Below are positions 14,079 through 17,532 of a DNA stretch of 20,162 nt, one piece after another. Position 1 is the first letter of the stretch. Every line of letters starts with the position of its first letter. The notes below the pieces were generated by a model, which was not told where the DNA came from, did not search any database, and was given only the letters and a program-made list of their open reading frames with translations. A program made the position numbers and the translations under genes. This DNA comes from a virus. Its lineage: Duplodnaviria; Heunggongvirae; Uroviricota; Caudoviricetes. The stretch spans positions 1-20,162 of the IMG/VR virus record IMGVR_UViG_3300045988_024768; one strand, given 5' to 3'.

Positions 14079-16553
14079 ATGAGACAGGAATGTATACAAG
14101 CGGTCCAGCAGGCGGCGCAGCGCACGTTAACGGCGCGAGAAATACAGAACATTGAAGACCGCATTTATCGAAATATGCGCTCCATTGCTCGTGATGACCC
14201 GATGTCGTGGCGACAACTTTCCGAATCAGAGCGGCTGTATCGTGCAGCACAATTGGCATCTGAAGAATTACAGCGAGAAGCGGCATTAAAGAAACGTCGT
14301 GTGGCCCTCACTATAGCCGCACGTCAGAGATTGGATAAATTTATCAATAGCTATCAAGGGGCTGATGGGAAACTTGGCGCTCTTAACCGTACTATTGCTT
14401 TTAATGCAGACGGTAAATCGAATTTCCTCTCTGTTGAATCCAGAACAAAAGCCACCCGTGATTATGCATTGAGTCAATTGCAAGAGGCATTTGAAGCAGT
14501 TGATCCTCGCTTTTTTGGCCTGTTTGAAGATGAAGCTGGCGTGCGTGACCTGGTATATGAAATACGAGGGCAAAATACTGGCAATGCTAAAGCAAGAAAA
14601 GGTGCTAAGGCGTGGAGAGAAGTTACAGAGCTGCTGCGCCGCCGGTTTAATGATGCTGGTGGGGACATTGGCTATCTCGAAAACTGGGGGATCCCTCAAC
14701 ATCATTCTATGGAAAAGGTTGGGGCGGTATCAAAAGATAAATGGGTTAGCGATGTTATAGGTAAGCTGGATCGCAAATATTATACCCGAGCCGATGGACA
14801 ACTGATGAACGATGCCGAGTTGTCTGCATTTCTTGGAGAGGCTTATAACACGATCGCTACTGGTGGGCTGAATAAGCTTACTGATACCGGAATGCGAATT
14901 TCCGGCGCACGTGCTAACCGTGGTAATGCATCACGACAGATACATTTCAAAGATGCAGATTCCTATCTGCAATATCAGCAACTTTATGGCGATCGCTCTC
15001 TATGGGAAATCATGGTCGGTCACCTGGAAGGTATCAGTAAAGATATTGCACTGGTGGAAACATATGGCCCAAACCCCGATCATGTTTTCCGCTCTCTTCT
15101 TGATCAGGTGAAGGCAGAAACGGCAACAGCTAACCCGAGTAAAACCGGTAAAGTCGAGCGGCTGGCGAACAACACAGAGAATCTGTACAACTTTATTTCC
15201 GGAAAGACACAGCCTGTAGCGAATCCGCATATCGCGCGATGGTCTGACAATATCCGCAACTGGCTGGTTGCCAGCAGACTCGGATCCGCGTTGCTGTCAT
15301 CGTTCTCTGATCTTGGAACCATGTATCTGTCTGCGAAGGTTACCAACCTTCCAATGAACCAGTTATTCCGCAACCAGCTTGAAGCTATGGACCCAACGAA
15401 CCGTACAGAACTTGCGCGGGCGCGCCGCGCTGGTCTGGCGATGGAATCTCTACTTGGCAGCGTTAACCGCTGGGCGATGGATAATATGGGGCCGTCTGTG
15501 TCTCGTTGGGCTGCAACGGCGGTAATGCGTGCCAGTGGGCTTACAGCATGGTCAGATGCGCACAAGCGCGCCTATGGCGTAACCATGATGGGAAGCCTGG
15601 GAGAAGTAGTGTCACGGACACCAGACCTTCGTAGCCTCGATTACTCTGATTTTCGTATCCTGAAAAGCAAAGGGATTACTGACACAGACTGGAGCGTATG
15701 GAAGCTGGCGCAACAGGAGGACTGGGGTAACGGTAATAATACGATGCTGACACCGGAAAGCATTATGCGTATCCCTGATTCAGCAGTTAAACATCTTGGT
15801 GAGCCTGAACGTGTGAAATTTGAGGCAATGCGTAAACTGCTCGGGGCGGTGACCGAAGAAGTGGATATGGCGGTCATCACTCCTGGCGCACGTGAGCAAC
15901 TGATAACCGGTTCTGGTATTCAGCGTGGAACATGGAAAGGTGAATTAACGAGAAGTGTTTTCCTGTTTAAATCGTTCCCTATCTCGGTGGTTATGCGTCA
16001 CTGGTCACGCGCTATGGGGATGCCGTCTGCTGGTGGGCGTGCGGCATATATTGCGACGTTTATTGCCAGTACGACCATTCTTGGCGCTTTGTCGCAACAA
16101 CTTAACGACCTTGCGTCTGGTCGTAATCCTCGAGAGATGACAGGAGAAGATGCCGCAAAATTCTGGCTTGGTGCTCTACTGAAAGGTGGTGGTCTTGGCC
16201 TTTACGGTGACTTTTTATTGTCAGATCACACTAGGTACGGAAGCGGCGCGCTGGCGTCGATGCTTGGCCCGGTAGCTGGTCTAGTTGATGACGTAGTGAA
16301 GATTGCTCAGGGCATACCGTTAAATGCTGTGGAAGGGAAGAGTGAGCAGACTGGTGGTGATCTGGTGAAGCTGGGGAAAGGTTTGATGCCTGGTGCGAAT
16401 CTCTGGTACTTGAAGGCGGCTCTCGATCACATGATCTTTAACCAGATGCAGGAGTATTTTTCACCAGGCTATTTGCGTAAAATGGAGCAACGTTCGAAGA
16501 AAGAGTTTAACCAGACATACTGGTGGCGACCTCAGGATGTCACTCCGCAATAA
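14079..16553 (+). CDS. Internal/ejection protein (824 aa)
   Basis: GAGAGG RBS, 5-nt gap after the previous gene. Large late-operon protein between the other ejection proteins and the tailspike. Confidence 0.55.
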   Translation: MRQECIQAVQQAAQRTLTAREIQNIEDRIYRNMRSIARDDPMSWRQLSESERLYRAAQLASEELQREAALKKRRVALTIAARQRLDKFINSYQGADGKLGALNRTIAFNADGKSNFLSVESRTKATRDYALSQLQEAFEAVDPRFFGLFEDEAGVRDLVYEIRGQNTGNAKARKGAKAWREVTELLRRRFNDAGGDIGYLENWGIPQHHSMEKVGAVSKDKWVSDVIGKLDRKYYTRADGQLMNDAELSAFLGEAYNTIATGGLNKLTDTGMRISGARANRGNASRQIHFKDADSYLQYQQLYGDRSLWEIMVGHLEGISKDIALVETYGPNPDHVFRSLLDQVKAETATANPSKTGKVERLANNTENLYNFISGKTQPVANPHIARWSDNIRNWLVASRLGSALLSSFSDLGTMYLSAKVTNLPMNQLFRNQLEAMDPTNRTELARARRAGLAMESLLGSVNRWAMDNMGPSVSRWAATAVMRASGLTAWSDAHKRAYGVTMMGSLGEVVSRTPDLRSLDYSDFRILKSKGITDTDWSVWKLAQQEDWGNGNNTMLTPESIMRIPDSAVKHLGEPERVKFEAMRKLLGAVTEEVDMAVITPGAREQLITGSGIQRGTWKGELTRSVFLFKSFPISVVMRHWSRAMGMPSAGGRAAYIATFIASTTILGALSQQLNDLASGRNPREMTGEDAAKFWLGALLKGGGLGLYGDFLLSDHTRYGSGALASMLGPVAGLVDDVVKIAQGIPLNAVEGKSEQTGGDLVKLGKGLMPGANLWYLKAALDHMIFNQMQEYFSPGYLRKMEQRSKKEFNQTYWWRPQDVTPQ

Positions 16554-16562
16554 GGAAGTGTT

Positions 16563-16736
16563 GTGTTTTTAATTATTTTGAGTGTGATAATTTCTGGTGT
16601 ATTGTTATTTATTGACCGCTACAAATATTTTCTTAACCCTCAGACTCAAGCTATTTGCTGGTTCATCTTTGTTGTGCAGGGAGTAGTTCTTGTTGCAAGC
16701 CTTATTGAGGGGAGGCCTCTTATTTTTACTGGGTAA
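16563..16736 (+). CDS. Putative small 2-TM membrane protein (57 aa, GTG start), AT-rich
   Basis: Hand-translated; below the ORF-track size cut-off. AGGAAG lies upstream of GTG 16563. Translation VFLIILSVIISGVLLFIDRYKYFLNPQTQAICWFIFVVQGVVLVASLIEGRPLIFTG has two hydrophobic helices. AT-rich codons differ from the structural genes. Confidence 0.3.
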   Translation: MFLIILSVIISGVLLFIDRYKYFLNPQTQAICWFIFVVQGVVLVASLIEGRPLIFTG

Positions 16737-16748
16737 ATAGGTGACTAC

Positions 16749-17045
16749 ATGCAAGCTATAGGATTCATTGTTTATATCGTCGTTGGTCTTTTTCAGTTGT
16801 CAGCAATTATGGCTGGGCTTGAATCATGGTGGGGATTGCACTGGATAATTGCAGCCCCCATTGCTTTCATCGTGAGCTATATTCCATTTGTTGGAGCGAT
16901 TGTTGGTATGGTTGGCGCTGTGGATGTATGGCGGTGGGAGTGGTGGCAGGCTGGCCTTCTCTTCTTTGGTGGGATCATCTTTGCTATTGTCTGCGGTGGA
17001 ATGTCATCATTTTTCGAATGGCTATCATTCAGAAAAAGAGCGTGA
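16749..17045 (+). CDS. Small Trp-rich 3-TM membrane protein (98 aa)
   Basis: ATG with AGGTGA upstream. Three hydrophobic segments with 8 Trp at predicted interfaces and a short basic C-terminus (FRKRA). Codon usage more AT-rich than the neighbours. Confidence 0.6.
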   Translation: MQAIGFIVYIVVGLFQLSAIMAGLESWWGLHWIIAAPIAFIVSYIPFVGAIVGMVGAVDVWRWEWWQAGLLFFGGIIFAIVCGGMSSFFEWLSFRKRA

Positions 17046-17077
17046 CATGTCACAGACCGCTTTCGCGGCCTTTAAAT

Positions 17078-17335
17078 TTACCGGGTTTGTTTTCGTAATT
17101 GTTCGGCACAATAGTCGAGATGTGTTTGCAGATCCCGCATAGACATCTGTGAGCTGGTGACGTAGTTAATCAGTGCAGTCAGTTCGGCAAGTGGGCCATC
17201 GACATTAAATCCATCCTTATCGAGATCCTGGAGTAATTTCATCAAGTGCGATCCCTCCACCAGTGACCTGACGCCTCCCGGCGTGTGAATCCTTTCGGTA
17301 AATCCGTCTTCCAGTGGATAGTGATACTGCTGCAT
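17078..17335 (-). CDS. Small acidic protein (85 aa), putatively SOS-regulated; candidate antirepressor/regulatory moron
   Basis: Minus-strand ATG at 17335 with GGAG 8 nt upstream. Translation starts MQQYHYPLEDGFTERIHTPGG. A near-consensus LexA box lies 20-39 nt upstream. The longer 155-aa ORF-track version would place the box inside coding sequence. Confidence 0.6.
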   Translation of the reverse strand: MQQYHYPLEDGFTERIHTPGGVRSLVEGSHLMKLLQDLDKDGFNVDGPLAELTALINYVTSSQMSMRDLQTHLDYCAEQLRKQTR

Positions 17336-17354
17336 CTTATCTTCTCCATGCAAT

Positions 17355-17374
17355 AACTGTATATTTATACAGTA
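17355..17374. promoter_or_regulatory. LexA (SOS) box AACTGTATATTTATACAGTA
   Basis: Matches the 20-nt gammaproteobacterial LexA consensus TACTGTATATATATACAGTA at 18 of 20 positions, with intact CTGT-N8-ACAG and an AT-rich spacer. Located in the promoter region of the minus-strand small gene. Confidence 0.75.
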
Positions 17375-17411
17375 GCAAATAATTTGTTTGCTATCCAGCA
17401 CGTTTTGCAAA

Positions 17412-17438
17412 TTACCCGAAAGGTAATATCTATTCGTG
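17412..17438 (+). promoter_or_regulatory. Conserved intergenic element, copy 2 (TTACCCGAAAGGTAATATCTATTCGTG)
   Basis: Same element as 176-199 with a 3-nt indel. Inverted repeat ATTACC-CGAAA-GGTAAT. About 95 nt upstream of the tailspike ATG. Confidence 0.35.
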
Positions 17439-17532
17439 TCCATGGTTTTTCTATGCATATATGGTTTTTCAGGTAATAGAATGGATGGGACTGCATGCGC
17501 GATGGGCGCACAAGCTATCCGGAGATAATGAC

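What the first reader, a model, noticed from the sequence alone, without database searches (positions are those of the whole stretch)
16554..17045. AT-rich insertion with two small multi-TM proteins between ejection-protein genes and the tailspike
The late operon is interrupted after the stop at 16553 by about 0.5 kb whose codon usage is far more AT-rich than the flanking structural genes. It encodes a hand-found 57-aa 2-TM ORF (16563-16736) and a 98-aa Trp-rich 3-TM protein (16749-17045). Neither has the long charged C-terminal tail expected of canonical holins. Small membrane proteins at this position are often superinfection-exclusion or injection-blocking factors, or lysogenic-conversion morons. 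They converge on the SOS-controlled minus-strand gene, so the three may form one accessory unit.
Basis: partly seen in the sequence, partly recalled or inferred. Interest (0 to 1): 0.5.

Follow-up and report, generated by a model that had tools for sequence, protein, structure and literature searches.

The report
Swappable membrane-protein cassette after ejection genes
Two real but uncharacterised small inner-membrane protein genes end the DNA-ejection-protein operon of an epsilon15/phiV10-like E. coli prophage, in a slot that related phages fill with different small envelope proteins; they are not lysis genes and may block DNA entry by rival phages, but this is untested.

Summary
Both ORFs (16563-16736, 57 aa, 2 TM; 16749-17045, 98 aa, 3 TM, 8 Trp) are genuine genes under purifying selection (dN/dS about 0.2 and 0.02). 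The window is a Uetakevirus (epsilon15/phiV10-like) prophage, not a P22-like one.

The genes lie between the last internal-virion/ejection protein gene (epsilon15 gp17 type, the T7 gp16 counterpart) and a conserved palindrome plus terminator. So they end the operon rather than interrupt it. AT-richness is strong only for orf57 (36% GC); orf98 has 46% against 50% for gp17.

The slot is a two-position hotspot:
- Position A holds unrelated small envelope proteins in different relatives.
- Position B is empty, holds orf98 (phrog_3075), or holds another membrane protein.
- orf98 homologues always follow the last ejection-protein gene, even where that protein is only 24% identical or is the T7-gp16 type.

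The cassette is in 205 of 316 E. coli genomes carrying this gp17. Canonical lysis cassettes lie elsewhere. The cassette occurs with at least 42 tailspike types.

The SOS-controlled minus-strand gene is a core phage gene, not part of the unit. No homology to SieA or to any defence or holin family was found, and no own promoter was detected. The best guess is inner-membrane superinfection exclusion, at moderate confidence.

The parts
14079..16553 (+). Context: last internal-virion/ejection protein gene (epsilon15 gp17 type, the T7 gp16 / IVP-D counterpart)
   Evidence: phrog_684, E=0. 99% identical to PhiV10p20. Epsilon15 gp17 is assigned as the IVP-D homologue in PMC4819975.
16552..16558 (+). 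Shine-Dalgarno AAGGAAG for orf57, overlapping the gp17 stop codon
   Evidence: Read from the sequence. AAGGA and the aligned start-codon position are conserved in phiV10, PAS61 and 65FD, which carry a different small gene there.
16563..16736 (+). orf57: 57-aa protein with two predicted TM segments and a basic loop (DRYKY); occupies slot position A
   Evidence: ORF. Hydrophobic segments at 1-20 and 28-51. dN/dS 0.18-0.26, against 1.1-1.9 in the wrong frames. Intact in 54/54 loci. Only 8 database clusters, all at 74% identity or more; the named ones are E. coli, Citrobacter, Salmonella and Enterobacter. A 54-aa relative at 37% identity is in L079.
16739..16744 (+). Shine-Dalgarno AGGTGA for orf98
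   Evidence: Read from the sequence. The 12 bases 'ataggtgactac' before the ATG travel with orf98 behind different upstream genes in L011 and L033.
16749..17045 (+). orf98: 98-aa Trp-rich three-helix membrane protein, phrog_3075; occupies slot position B
   Evidence: phrog_3075, E=3e-54. dN/dS about 0.02. Invariant motif W-x-W-W-Q-A-x-x-L-F-F-G and several invariant Gly. AlphaFold2 pLDDT 90. 686 cluster representatives at E<=1e-3.
17042..17053 (.). Perfect 12-bp palindrome GTGACATGTCAC at the right edge of the variable slot, overlapping the orf98 stop codon
   Evidence: Invariant in all six aligned phages. An exact copy is present in 79 of 100 loci held, including epsilon15, Cronobacter and phages with a T7-gp16-type ejection protein. 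Function unknown.
17055..17079 (+). Intrinsic terminator of the operon (hairpin GACCGC-TTTC-GCGGCC plus TTTAAATTT), weakened here by a G-to-A change in the stem
   Evidence: Conserved as GGCCGCTTTCGCGGCC in relatives. The fold is -9.3 kcal/mol here against -17.3 in phiV10.
17078..17341 (-). Context, not part of the unit: epsilon15 gp19 homologue, a putative small antirepressor
   Evidence: phrog_450, E=1e-47, and a weaker match to the antirepressor family phrog_1760. Present in phiV10, PAS61, 65FD and epsilon15, which lack the cassette.
17357..17372 (.). Context: LexA-box-like CTGTATATTTATACAG upstream of the minus-strand gene
   Evidence: Pattern search. Epsilon15 has TACTGTATAAACATACAGTA at the same place.
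17533..19812 (+). Context: tailspike gene
   Evidence: phrog_1640 and many tail-fibre/tailspike families match the N-terminal 230-290 residues.

Best explanation
The region is the 3'-terminal accessory cassette of the internal-virion (ejection) protein operon of a Uetakevirus prophage.

Anatomy. orf57 and orf98 are two closely spaced inner-membrane protein genes. They follow the last ejection-protein gene and are closed by a conserved palindrome and terminator. The cassette is one allele of a two-position hotspot. Recombination between the conserved 3' end of gp17 and the palindrome/terminator swaps in alternative small envelope proteins.

Proposed function (inferred, not shown). The proteins insert in the inner membrane of the lysogen or infected cell. 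orf98 is predicted N-out/C-in, with its invariant WxWWQA loop on the periplasmic face. There they interfere with formation or function of the trans-envelope DNA conduit that incoming short-tailed phages build from their ejection proteins. This would be superinfection exclusion at the DNA-entry step. It would work like P22 SieA or HK97 gp15 without being related to them.
For: Shown:
- Both genes are under purifying selection.
- Both are predicted polytopic membrane proteins.
- They are dispensable for virion production and lysis. phiV10, PAS61, ZX5 and nine Salmonella Uetakevirus records match the gp17 3' end but are not among the seven phage records that encode orf98, yet were isolated as phages. 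205 of 316 E. coli genomes with this gp17 carry the cassette, and 54 carry the phiV10p21 allele.
- In the phage-derived and Enterobacterales loci, orf98 homologues follow directly after the last ejection-protein gene. This holds when that gene is phrog_684 at only 24-29% identity, or the T7-gp16-type phrog_342. The gap is as small as 1-35 nt.
- orf98 does not co-evolve with its neighbouring ejection protein. It is 99% identical in L011, where the ejection protein is 24% identical. That fits a mobile accessory gene, not an assembly partner.
- The neighbours in the slot are also membrane or signal-peptide proteins of at least six unrelated types.
- In the isolated-phage collection the family occurs only in Uetakevirus records, a genus whose described members are temperate.

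Precedent:
- P22 sieA encodes a 3-TM inner-membrane protein. It lies between the last ejection gene and the tailspike gene, and it blocks the gp20/gp16 conduit (PMC10883804).
- HK97 gp15 is a late-operon moron that blocks DNA entry, and it has non-phage bacterial homologues (PMC3594210).
Against: - No exclusion phenotype has been tested.
- No convincing sigma-70 promoter was found upstream. The only weak candidate (8/12 match, inside orf57) cannot serve orf98 copies that lie behind other genes.
- In Cronobacter the orf98 homologue starts 1 nt after the ejection gene, so it looks co-transcribed with late genes. Expression in the lysogen is therefore unproven.
- P22 sieA, unlike this cassette, is on the opposite strand and has its own promoter.
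- There is no sequence relation to SieA (hhalign probability 0.2%), no PADLOC or NCBIfam hit, and no structural match.
- Distant family members sit in ordinary chromosomal contexts or are fused to RDD, DUF805 or MORN domains. The domain may therefore have a general membrane role.
Confidence: 0.4

Rival explanations
1. A late lytic-cycle membrane function. The proteins are made with the virion proteins. They would modulate lysis timing (holin/antiholin-like), or condition the inner membrane, or handle the hydrophobic ejection proteins before packaging.
For: Same strand as the ejection gene, with tight spacing or coupling to it, and no own promoter. orf98 has the size and the N-out/C-in 3-TM layout of class I holins. 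There is a sub-threshold match to the holin family Hol44 (14.5 bits against a cut-off of 29.2).
Against: Every phage context examined has a separate canonical lysis cassette of varying type: holin_3_7/DUF754, holin_8 or holin_2_1 with an endolysin. The cassette is missing from many relatives isolated as plaque-forming phages. orf98 does not co-vary with the ejection protein. The Pfam match is below threshold, and the Foldseek matches to holins have E>4.
Confidence: 0.2
2. Lysogenic conversion unrelated to phage exclusion. The small envelope proteins would alter host membrane physiology, for example stress, serum, colicin or toxin tolerance, to the benefit of the lysogen.
For: Moron-like features: a low-GC first gene, a terminator, a patchy distribution, and envelope targeting. 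Very strong constraint on orf98. Broad non-phage relatives suggest a host-type membrane function. Prophage phiv142-3, which carries the cassette, is reported to aid survival in serum, although the genes implicated were others (PMC7724020).
Against: The strict position after the ejection-protein gene in several phage lineages is not explained. No promoter was found. No link to any known conversion family.
Confidence: 0.2
3. O-antigen seroconversion factor, for example a small inhibitor of the host O-antigen polymerase like the epsilon15 2-TM alpha-polymerase inhibitor, matched to the tailspike specificity.
For: Uetakeviruses do encode small 2-TM conversion proteins and acetyltransferases near the tailspike gene.
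Against: orf98-bearing loci carry at least 42 different tailspike receptor-binding clusters among about 50 loci. They occur in E. coli, Klebsiella, Cronobacter, Salmonella and Yersinia. The known conversion genes lie downstream of the tailspike, not here.
Confidence: 0.05
4. The two ORFs and the convergent SOS-controlled gene form one accessory unit.
For: They are adjacent and convergent in this window. A LexA-box-like site precedes the minus-strand gene.
Against: The minus-strand gene and its LexA box are present in epsilon15, and the gene is also present in phiV10, PAS61 and 65FD; all four lack the cassette. A terminator separates them. In relatives, 0.4-3.7 kb of unrelated cargo (Bro-N antirepressors, HicAB) lies between orf98 and the tailspike.
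Confidence: 0.03

Closest known systems
P22 SieA (superinfection exclusion A)
   Same: A predicted 3-TM inner-membrane protein encoded between the last ejection-protein gene and the tailspike gene of a temperate short-tailed phage. It is accessory (22 of 66 P22-like phages carry it) and exists in sequence types that are barely alignable. It blocks the ejection-protein conduit (PMC10883804).
   Different: No sequence relation (hhalign probability 0.2%). SieA has 162-164 aa and a cytoplasmic FxRYPxEAxxFNK motif that orf98 lacks. sieA is on the opposite strand with its own promoter. The phage lineage is different (Lederbergvirus against Uetakevirus).
HK97 gp15 moron
   Same: A small inner-membrane protein gene embedded in a late structural operon, absent from relatives. 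It blocks DNA entry in a way that depends on features of the incoming phage's tail, and it has bacterial homologues outside prophages (PMC3594210).
   Different: It is a siphovirus gene of the YebO family, lies between tail genes, and is reported to be expressed from the prophage. There is no such evidence here.
PhiV10p21 and epsilon15 gp18 (syntenic small 2-TM proteins, phrog_7892 and phrog_29212)
   Same: They occupy the same position directly after gp17, with the same ribosome-binding-site and start-codon register. They share the architecture of short N-terminus, TM, basic loop, TM, and the same palindrome and terminator follow them.
   Different: No detectable sequence similarity to orf57. 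They are not followed by orf98. Their function is also unknown.
Class I holins (for example lambda S)
   Same: About 100 aa, three TM helices, predicted N-out/C-in topology, basic C-terminus.
   Different: Not next to an endolysin. A separate lysis cassette exists in relatives. The C-terminal tail has only four charged residues in the last nine. The Pfam holin match is below threshold.
T4 Imm
   Same: A small membrane protein that blocks phage DNA injection (established knowledge, recalled, not tested here).
   Different: It is an early gene of a lytic myovirus. No family match was seen in the PHROG scan.

Membership tests
phrog_3075 (uncharacterised phage protein family) | Full-length match to the family profile | tested here: met
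   E=3e-54, residues 1-97 aligned to profile positions 1-97 of 98.
P22 SieA family | Sequence homology to SieA types A-C, including the cytoplasmic FxRYPxEAxxFNK motif | tested here: not met
   hhalign of the orf98 alignment against P22 SieA gives probability 0.2%. The motif is absent from the orf98 and orf57 sequences.
P22 SieA family | Inner-membrane protein with three or four TM segments, about 160-200 aa | tested here: inconclusive
   Three helices are predicted for orf98, but it has only 98 aa. Localisation cannot be tested here.
P22 SieA family | Gene located between the last ejection-protein gene and the tailspike gene | tested here: met
   However, it is on the same strand as the late operon, unlike sieA.
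P22 SieA family | Expressed from the prophage and blocks DNA injection by related phages | not testable with these tools
   Needs expression and plating experiments. No promoter was detected.
Moron (Hendrix/Juhala definition) | Extra DNA absent from close relatives, with deviating GC content | tested here: met
   Absent from phiV10, PAS61, 65FD and epsilon15. orf57 has 36% GC against 50% for gp17, while orf98 at 46% deviates only mildly.
Moron (Hendrix/Juhala definition) | Own promoter and terminator allowing expression from the repressed prophage | tested here: inconclusive
   A terminator is present but is the one all relatives share. There is no promoter at 9/12 or better, only weak 8/12 candidates.
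Holins (Pfam holin families; class I architecture) | Match to a holin family above the curated threshold | tested here: not met
   Best match is Phage_holin_5_2 at 14.5 bits against a cut-off of 29.2. Only 2 of 25 family members match it.
Holins (Pfam holin families; class I architecture) | Encoded in a lysis cassette next to an endolysin and spanins | tested here: not met
   The neighbours are an ejection-protein gene and a terminator. In relatives the lysis cassette lies downstream of the tailspike.
Known anti-phage defence systems (PADLOC-DB) | Match to any defence protein model | tested here: not met
   No match at E<=1 for orf57, orf98 or the minus-strand gene.
O-antigen conversion genes of Uetakeviruses | Co-variation with tailspike/O-antigen type and a position downstream of the tailspike | tested here: not met
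   At least 42 tailspike receptor-binding clusters among orf98-bearing loci. The position is upstream of the tailspike.

The most novel reading that the evidence does not exclude
orf98 (phrog_3075) founds a new family of inner-membrane exclusion proteins, widespread in Enterobacterales. Temperate podoviruses park it directly behind their T7-gp16/epsilon15-gp17-type ejection-protein gene, and it blocks the inner-membrane stage of ejectosome assembly by rival podoviruses. The hypervariable first position (orf57, PhiV10p21, epsilon15 gp18 and others) would provide a second, rapidly diversifying exclusion or specificity layer. The invariant palindrome GTGACATGTCAC would serve as the recombination or regulatory boundary that lets these cassettes be exchanged between unrelated phages.
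Probability: 0.25. Interest if true: 0.65.

Novelty: new variant of a known kind. Interest (0 to 1): 0.42.

Why it matters
About 4% of complete E. coli genomes (205 of 5,426) carry this exact cassette, and relatives occur in Klebsiella, Salmonella, Cronobacter, Yersinia and Dickeya. Yet neither protein belongs to any characterised family.

If the proteins block DNA entry, they would be a second example, unrelated in sequence to P22 SieA, of an ejectosome-directed exclusion system. They could serve as a handle on how the gp16/gp17-type conduit crosses the inner membrane. They would also be a resistance determinant to consider when choosing therapeutic or typing podoviruses against E. coli and Klebsiella.

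The two-position layout, bounded by a conserved palindrome, also gives a clean natural system for studying how accessory genes are exchanged among phages. If instead they act late in the lytic cycle, they are an unrecognised accessory layer of that cycle. Either way, the experiments needed are simple.

Tried and rejected
- **Annotation libraries.** Pfam, NCBIfam and PADLOC scans of both proteins found nothing above threshold. PHROGs gave only families of unknown function.
- **Structure.** The AlphaFold2 model of orf98 was confident, but Foldseek against PDB and BFVD gave no match below E=2. The afdb50 library was not available.
- **Fused domains in long family members.** Twenty were scanned and only RDD, DUF805 and MORN turned up, which is uninformative.
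- **Contexts of distant homologues.** Those in Microvirga, Caulobacterales and Desulfovibrio had ordinary chromosomal or unclear neighbours (aconitase, MutS, DUF6804, Bro-N), with no functional hint.
- **Holin hypothesis.** Rejected on position, on the separate lysis cassettes, and on the sub-threshold match.
- **Seroconversion hypothesis.** Rejected on tailspike diversity.
- **One unit with the SOS gene.** Rejected on comparative synteny.
- **Terminator-like hairpin inside the 3' end of orf57 (16706-16722).** It is not conserved in Klebsiella and folds no better than shuffles, so it is treated as incidental.
- **Promoter search.** Nothing convincing.
- **Literature.** No paper mentions the protein accession WP_001147904, and the searches run on phiV10, epsilon15 gp18 and small membrane exclusion proteins turned up no functional study of this slot. 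The phiv142-3 expression study has no data for the homologous Orf12.
- **Scan of viral contigs for the 14-mer around the palindrome.** It was dominated by matches with no recognisable neighbouring gene or hairpin, probably chance, so it did not extend the observation beyond these phages.

Full report
**What is there.** The window is the late region of a Uetakevirus (epsilon15/phiV10-like) prophage of E. coli, not a P22-like phage. Megablast of 16400-17600 finds phiV10, phiv142-3, HEMP4, PAS61 and other Uetakeviruses. Synteny with the annotated phiV10 genome is complete.

The 824-aa gene ending at 16553 is the epsilon15 gp17 / PhiV10p20 virion protein (phrog_684). Hardies et al. assign gp17 as the counterpart of T7 internal virion protein D, gp16 (PMC4819975). 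Downstream features, in order:
- orf57, 16563-16736, with a GTG start and Shine-Dalgarno AAGGAAG
- orf98, 16749-17045, with Shine-Dalgarno AGGTGA
- a 12-bp palindrome, GTGACATGTCAC, at 17042-17053
- a terminator hairpin, 17055-17079
- the convergent epsilon15 gp19 homologue, 17078-17341 on the minus strand
- a LexA-box-like site, 17357-17372
- the tailspike gene, 17533-19812

**Are the ORFs real?** Yes. Comparing the E. coli copies with Klebsiella copies about 80% identical in DNA, orf98 has dN/dS of 0.02-0.04 at near-saturated dS. orf57 has 0.18-0.26, while its two wrong frames give 1.1-1.9 and contain stops. orf57 is intact in all 54 loci that carry it, and its start codon toggles between GTG and TTG. 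orf98 is intact at essentially full length in the roughly 70 loci examined.

Hydropathy gives two TM segments in orf57, with the positive charges in the connecting loop. orf98 has three hydrophobic stretches and a basic C-terminus. AlphaFold2 on a 25-sequence alignment gives pLDDT 90, with helices at 2-28, 32-42/46-59 and 65-97. The family alignment shows invariant residues Gly5, 13, 29, 49, 53, 56 and 74, Gln16, Pro46, and a W63-x-W65-W66-Q-A-x-x-L-F-F-G block at the start of the last helix.

The AT-richness claim holds for orf57 (36% GC) but only weakly for orf98 (46% against 50% for gp17 and 42% for the tailspike).

**A two-position variable slot.** Six phages were aligned. The 3' end of gp17, the ribosome-binding site and the start-codon position are conserved on the left. 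The palindrome and terminator are conserved on the right. Between these borders:
- phiV10, PAS61 and 65FD have a single 46-aa 2-TM gene (PhiV10p21).
- Epsilon15 has an unrelated 64-aa 2-TM gene, gp18.
- The window, phiv142-3, YDC107_2 and Klebsiella phage BUCT711 have orf57 plus orf98, as does HEMP4.

Ninety-one loci carrying orf98 homologues were surveyed. Between the ejection gene and orf98 they hold one of the following:
- orf57
- a 54-aa relative of orf57 (37% identity)
- a 103-aa TM protein
- a 113-aa TM protein
- a 102/123-aa signal-peptide protein
- nothing

Conversely, orf57 homologues in Salmonella and Enterobacter are followed not by orf98 but by a different 92-aa 2-TM protein with a charged tail. 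All of these are envelope-targeted, and all lack functional annotation.

In complete E. coli genomes, 316 carry this gp17 3' end. Of these, 205 have the orf57-orf98 cassette and 54 have the phiV10p21 allele. The window therefore carries the commonest allele, not a rare insertion.

**orf98 is tied to the ejection-protein gene, not to a phage lineage.**
- In Cronobacter the homologue starts 1 nt after an 849-aa phrog_684 protein that is 24% identical to the window's gp17.
- In Salmonella it starts 35 nt after an 833-aa one.
- In Yersinia and three viral-contig loci of unidentified host it follows 937- to 1130-aa proteins of phrog_342, 'internal virion protein with endolysin domain', the T7 gp16 type.
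- In E. coli locus L011 orf98 is 99% identical to the window's copy, although the ejection protein is only 24% identical. This implies recent lateral transfer with retention of position. It argues against co-evolution with the adjacent structural protein.
- The 12 bases before the ATG, including the Shine-Dalgarno, move with the gene.
- The family is large: 686 representatives at 50% clustering with E<=1e-3. It reaches Alphaproteobacteria and Desulfovibrio, sometimes in non-phage contexts or fused to RDD, DUF805 or MORN.
- It has no Pfam or NCBIfam model.
- orf57 is a narrow orphan. Only eight database clusters were found, all at 74% identity or more; the named ones are E. coli, Citrobacter, Salmonella and Enterobacter.

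**What it is not.**
- *Not lysis genes.* Relatives have a complete cluster downstream of the tailspike: putative holin, DUF754 holin, endolysin and, where shown, spanins. Other orf98-bearing phages have different holin types elsewhere. The only holin signal is a sub-threshold Pfam match.
- *Not tailspike-linked seroconversion.* At least 42 receptor-binding-domain clusters accompany orf98.
- *Not a unit with the SOS gene.* That gene (phrog_450, with weak similarity to antirepressors) is present in phiV10, PAS61, 65FD and epsilon15, which lack the cassette, and epsilon15 also has a LexA box upstream of it. It lies beyond the terminator. In relatives, up to about 3.5 kb of Bro-N, HicAB and other cargo lies between orf98 and the tailspike.
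- *Not related to SieA or to any PADLOC model*.
- *No informative structural neighbour*.

**Most likely mechanism.** The features point to a prophage accessory function at the inner membrane:
- envelope targeting
- dispensability for phage growth
- strong constraint on the sequence
- horizontal mobility
- occurrence, in the isolated-phage collection, only in Uetakevirus records, a genus whose described members are temperate
- a fixed place directly behind the gene for the membrane-spanning ejection protein

The closest working model is superinfection exclusion at the DNA-entry step. P22 SieA is a 3-TM inner-membrane protein encoded between the last ejection gene and the tailspike gene, and it targets the gp20/gp16 conduit (PMC10883804). 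HK97 gp15 is a late-operon moron with non-phage homologues (PMC3594210).

What is shown is anatomy, selection, distribution and synteny. What is inferred is localisation, topology, expression in the lysogen, and the exclusion activity itself.

The main weakness is the absence of a recognisable promoter, together with the tight coupling to a late gene. This keeps a late lytic-cycle role and a non-phage conversion role alive. I put exclusion at about 0.4, and each of those two rivals at about 0.2.

**Novelty and score.** Small membrane morons and exclusion proteins are a known kind. This cassette belongs to no characterised family. Its systematic linkage to gp16/gp17-type ejection genes across lineages, within a two-position hotspot bounded by an invariant palindrome, did not turn up in the literature I could search. 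It is a worthwhile and cheap experimental target, but not a surprising one. Interest is 0.42.

Noticed in passing
window 17042-17053; also L006 (phiV10) 2262 and 19493, L097 (epsilon15) 5518, L012 6302, L087 4294: The perfect 12-bp palindrome GTGACATGTCAC overlaps the stop codon of the last slot gene and precedes the terminator hairpin. An exact copy is in 79 of 100 loci held, including phages whose ejection proteins are only 24% identical or of the T7-gp16 type. A second copy in phiV10 lies after a minus-strand gene, again just before a GC hairpin and T tract. It may be a module boundary or recombination linker, an RNA-processing site or a protein-binding site. A viral-contig scan for the 14-mer mostly returned matches with no recognisable context.
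   Followed up: partly
window 17078-17341 (-) and 17357-17372: The epsilon15 gp19 homologue (phrog_450, with weak similarity to the C-terminal part of antirepressor family phrog_1760) is preceded by a near-consensus LexA box, CTGTATATTTATACAG. The box is conserved as TACTGTATAAACATACAGTA in epsilon15. This suggests a LexA-controlled small antirepressor that couples prophage induction to the SOS response. It shares the intergenic region with the tailspike promoter.
   Followed up: partly
window 17055-17079: The operon terminator carries a G-to-A change in its stem (GACCGC against GGCCGC in relatives) and a TTTAAATTT tail. The predicted stability drops from -17.3 kcal/mol in phiV10 to -9.3. Read-through into the convergent gene may be higher in this prophage.
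   Followed up: partly
L098 4274-4552 and L099 4187-4465: In Salmonella and Enterobacter prophages the orf57 homologue is followed by a different 92-aa protein instead of orf98. That protein has two hydrophobic segments and a conserved, highly charged C-terminal tail (LSLWLKRRKLEEEKRIKEL), which is a holin-like architecture. It has no PHROG match.
   Followed up: partly
L033 3685-3996, L011 3636-4007, L074 3684-3992, L010 3672-4013, L079 3800-3964: Alternative occupants of the first slot position are a 103-aa TM protein (phrog_21905), a 102/123-aa signal-peptide protein family, a 113-aa TM protein, and a 54-aa distant relative of orf57. All are of unknown function.
   Followed up: partly
window 16460-16553: The last 60-90 nt of gp17 show raised third-codon-position identity (0.50-0.85 against about 0.45 elsewhere) in comparisons with Klebsiella, Salmonella and other copies. 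This suggests constraint at the nucleotide level: a recombination border, translational coupling or an embedded signal.
   Followed up: partly
window 19847-20162 (-): The window ends inside a minus-strand gene whose C-terminal fragment matches Acyl_transf_3 below threshold (E=1.7e-5, 24.5 bits against a cut-off of 31). It lies in a very AT-rich stretch (29% GC) at the position of the phiV10 O-antigen acetyltransferase oac. It is likely a seroconversion gene.
   Followed up: partly
L012-L014 6362-7620, L003 4679-6317, L002 3009-3688: The interval between the terminator and the gp19 homologue is a second variable region. It holds minus-strand cargo such as Bro-N antirepressors, a HicA/DUF1902 (HicB-like) toxin-antitoxin pair and small hypothetical genes. 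Its length puts orf98 0.4-3.7 kb from the tailspike.
   Followed up: no
L020, L021, L025, L027, L028; proteins P0078, P0085, P0141: Distant orf98-family members (36-55% identity) occur in Microvirga, Caulobacterales, Rhizobiaceae and Desulfovibrio, next to housekeeping genes (aconitase, MutS) or to a DUF6804 protein. Some representatives are fused to DUF805, RDD or MORN repeats. One 427-aa protein has four matched stretches. The domain has no Pfam model.
   Followed up: partly
window 16602-16629 and L008 4854-4881: A weak promoter-like pair, TTGTTA-16 nt-AATATT (8/12 match), lies inside orf57 and is conserved between the E. coli and Klebsiella copies. It is the only candidate for independent transcription of orf98, and it is unconvincing.
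   Followed up: no
window 4188-4203: A second CTGT-N8-ACAG match (CTGTGGGTCGTAACAG) lies between the capsid-region genes. Its spacer is GC-rich, unlike LexA boxes, so it is probably chance. Two of 100 shuffles reach two matches.
   Followed up: no
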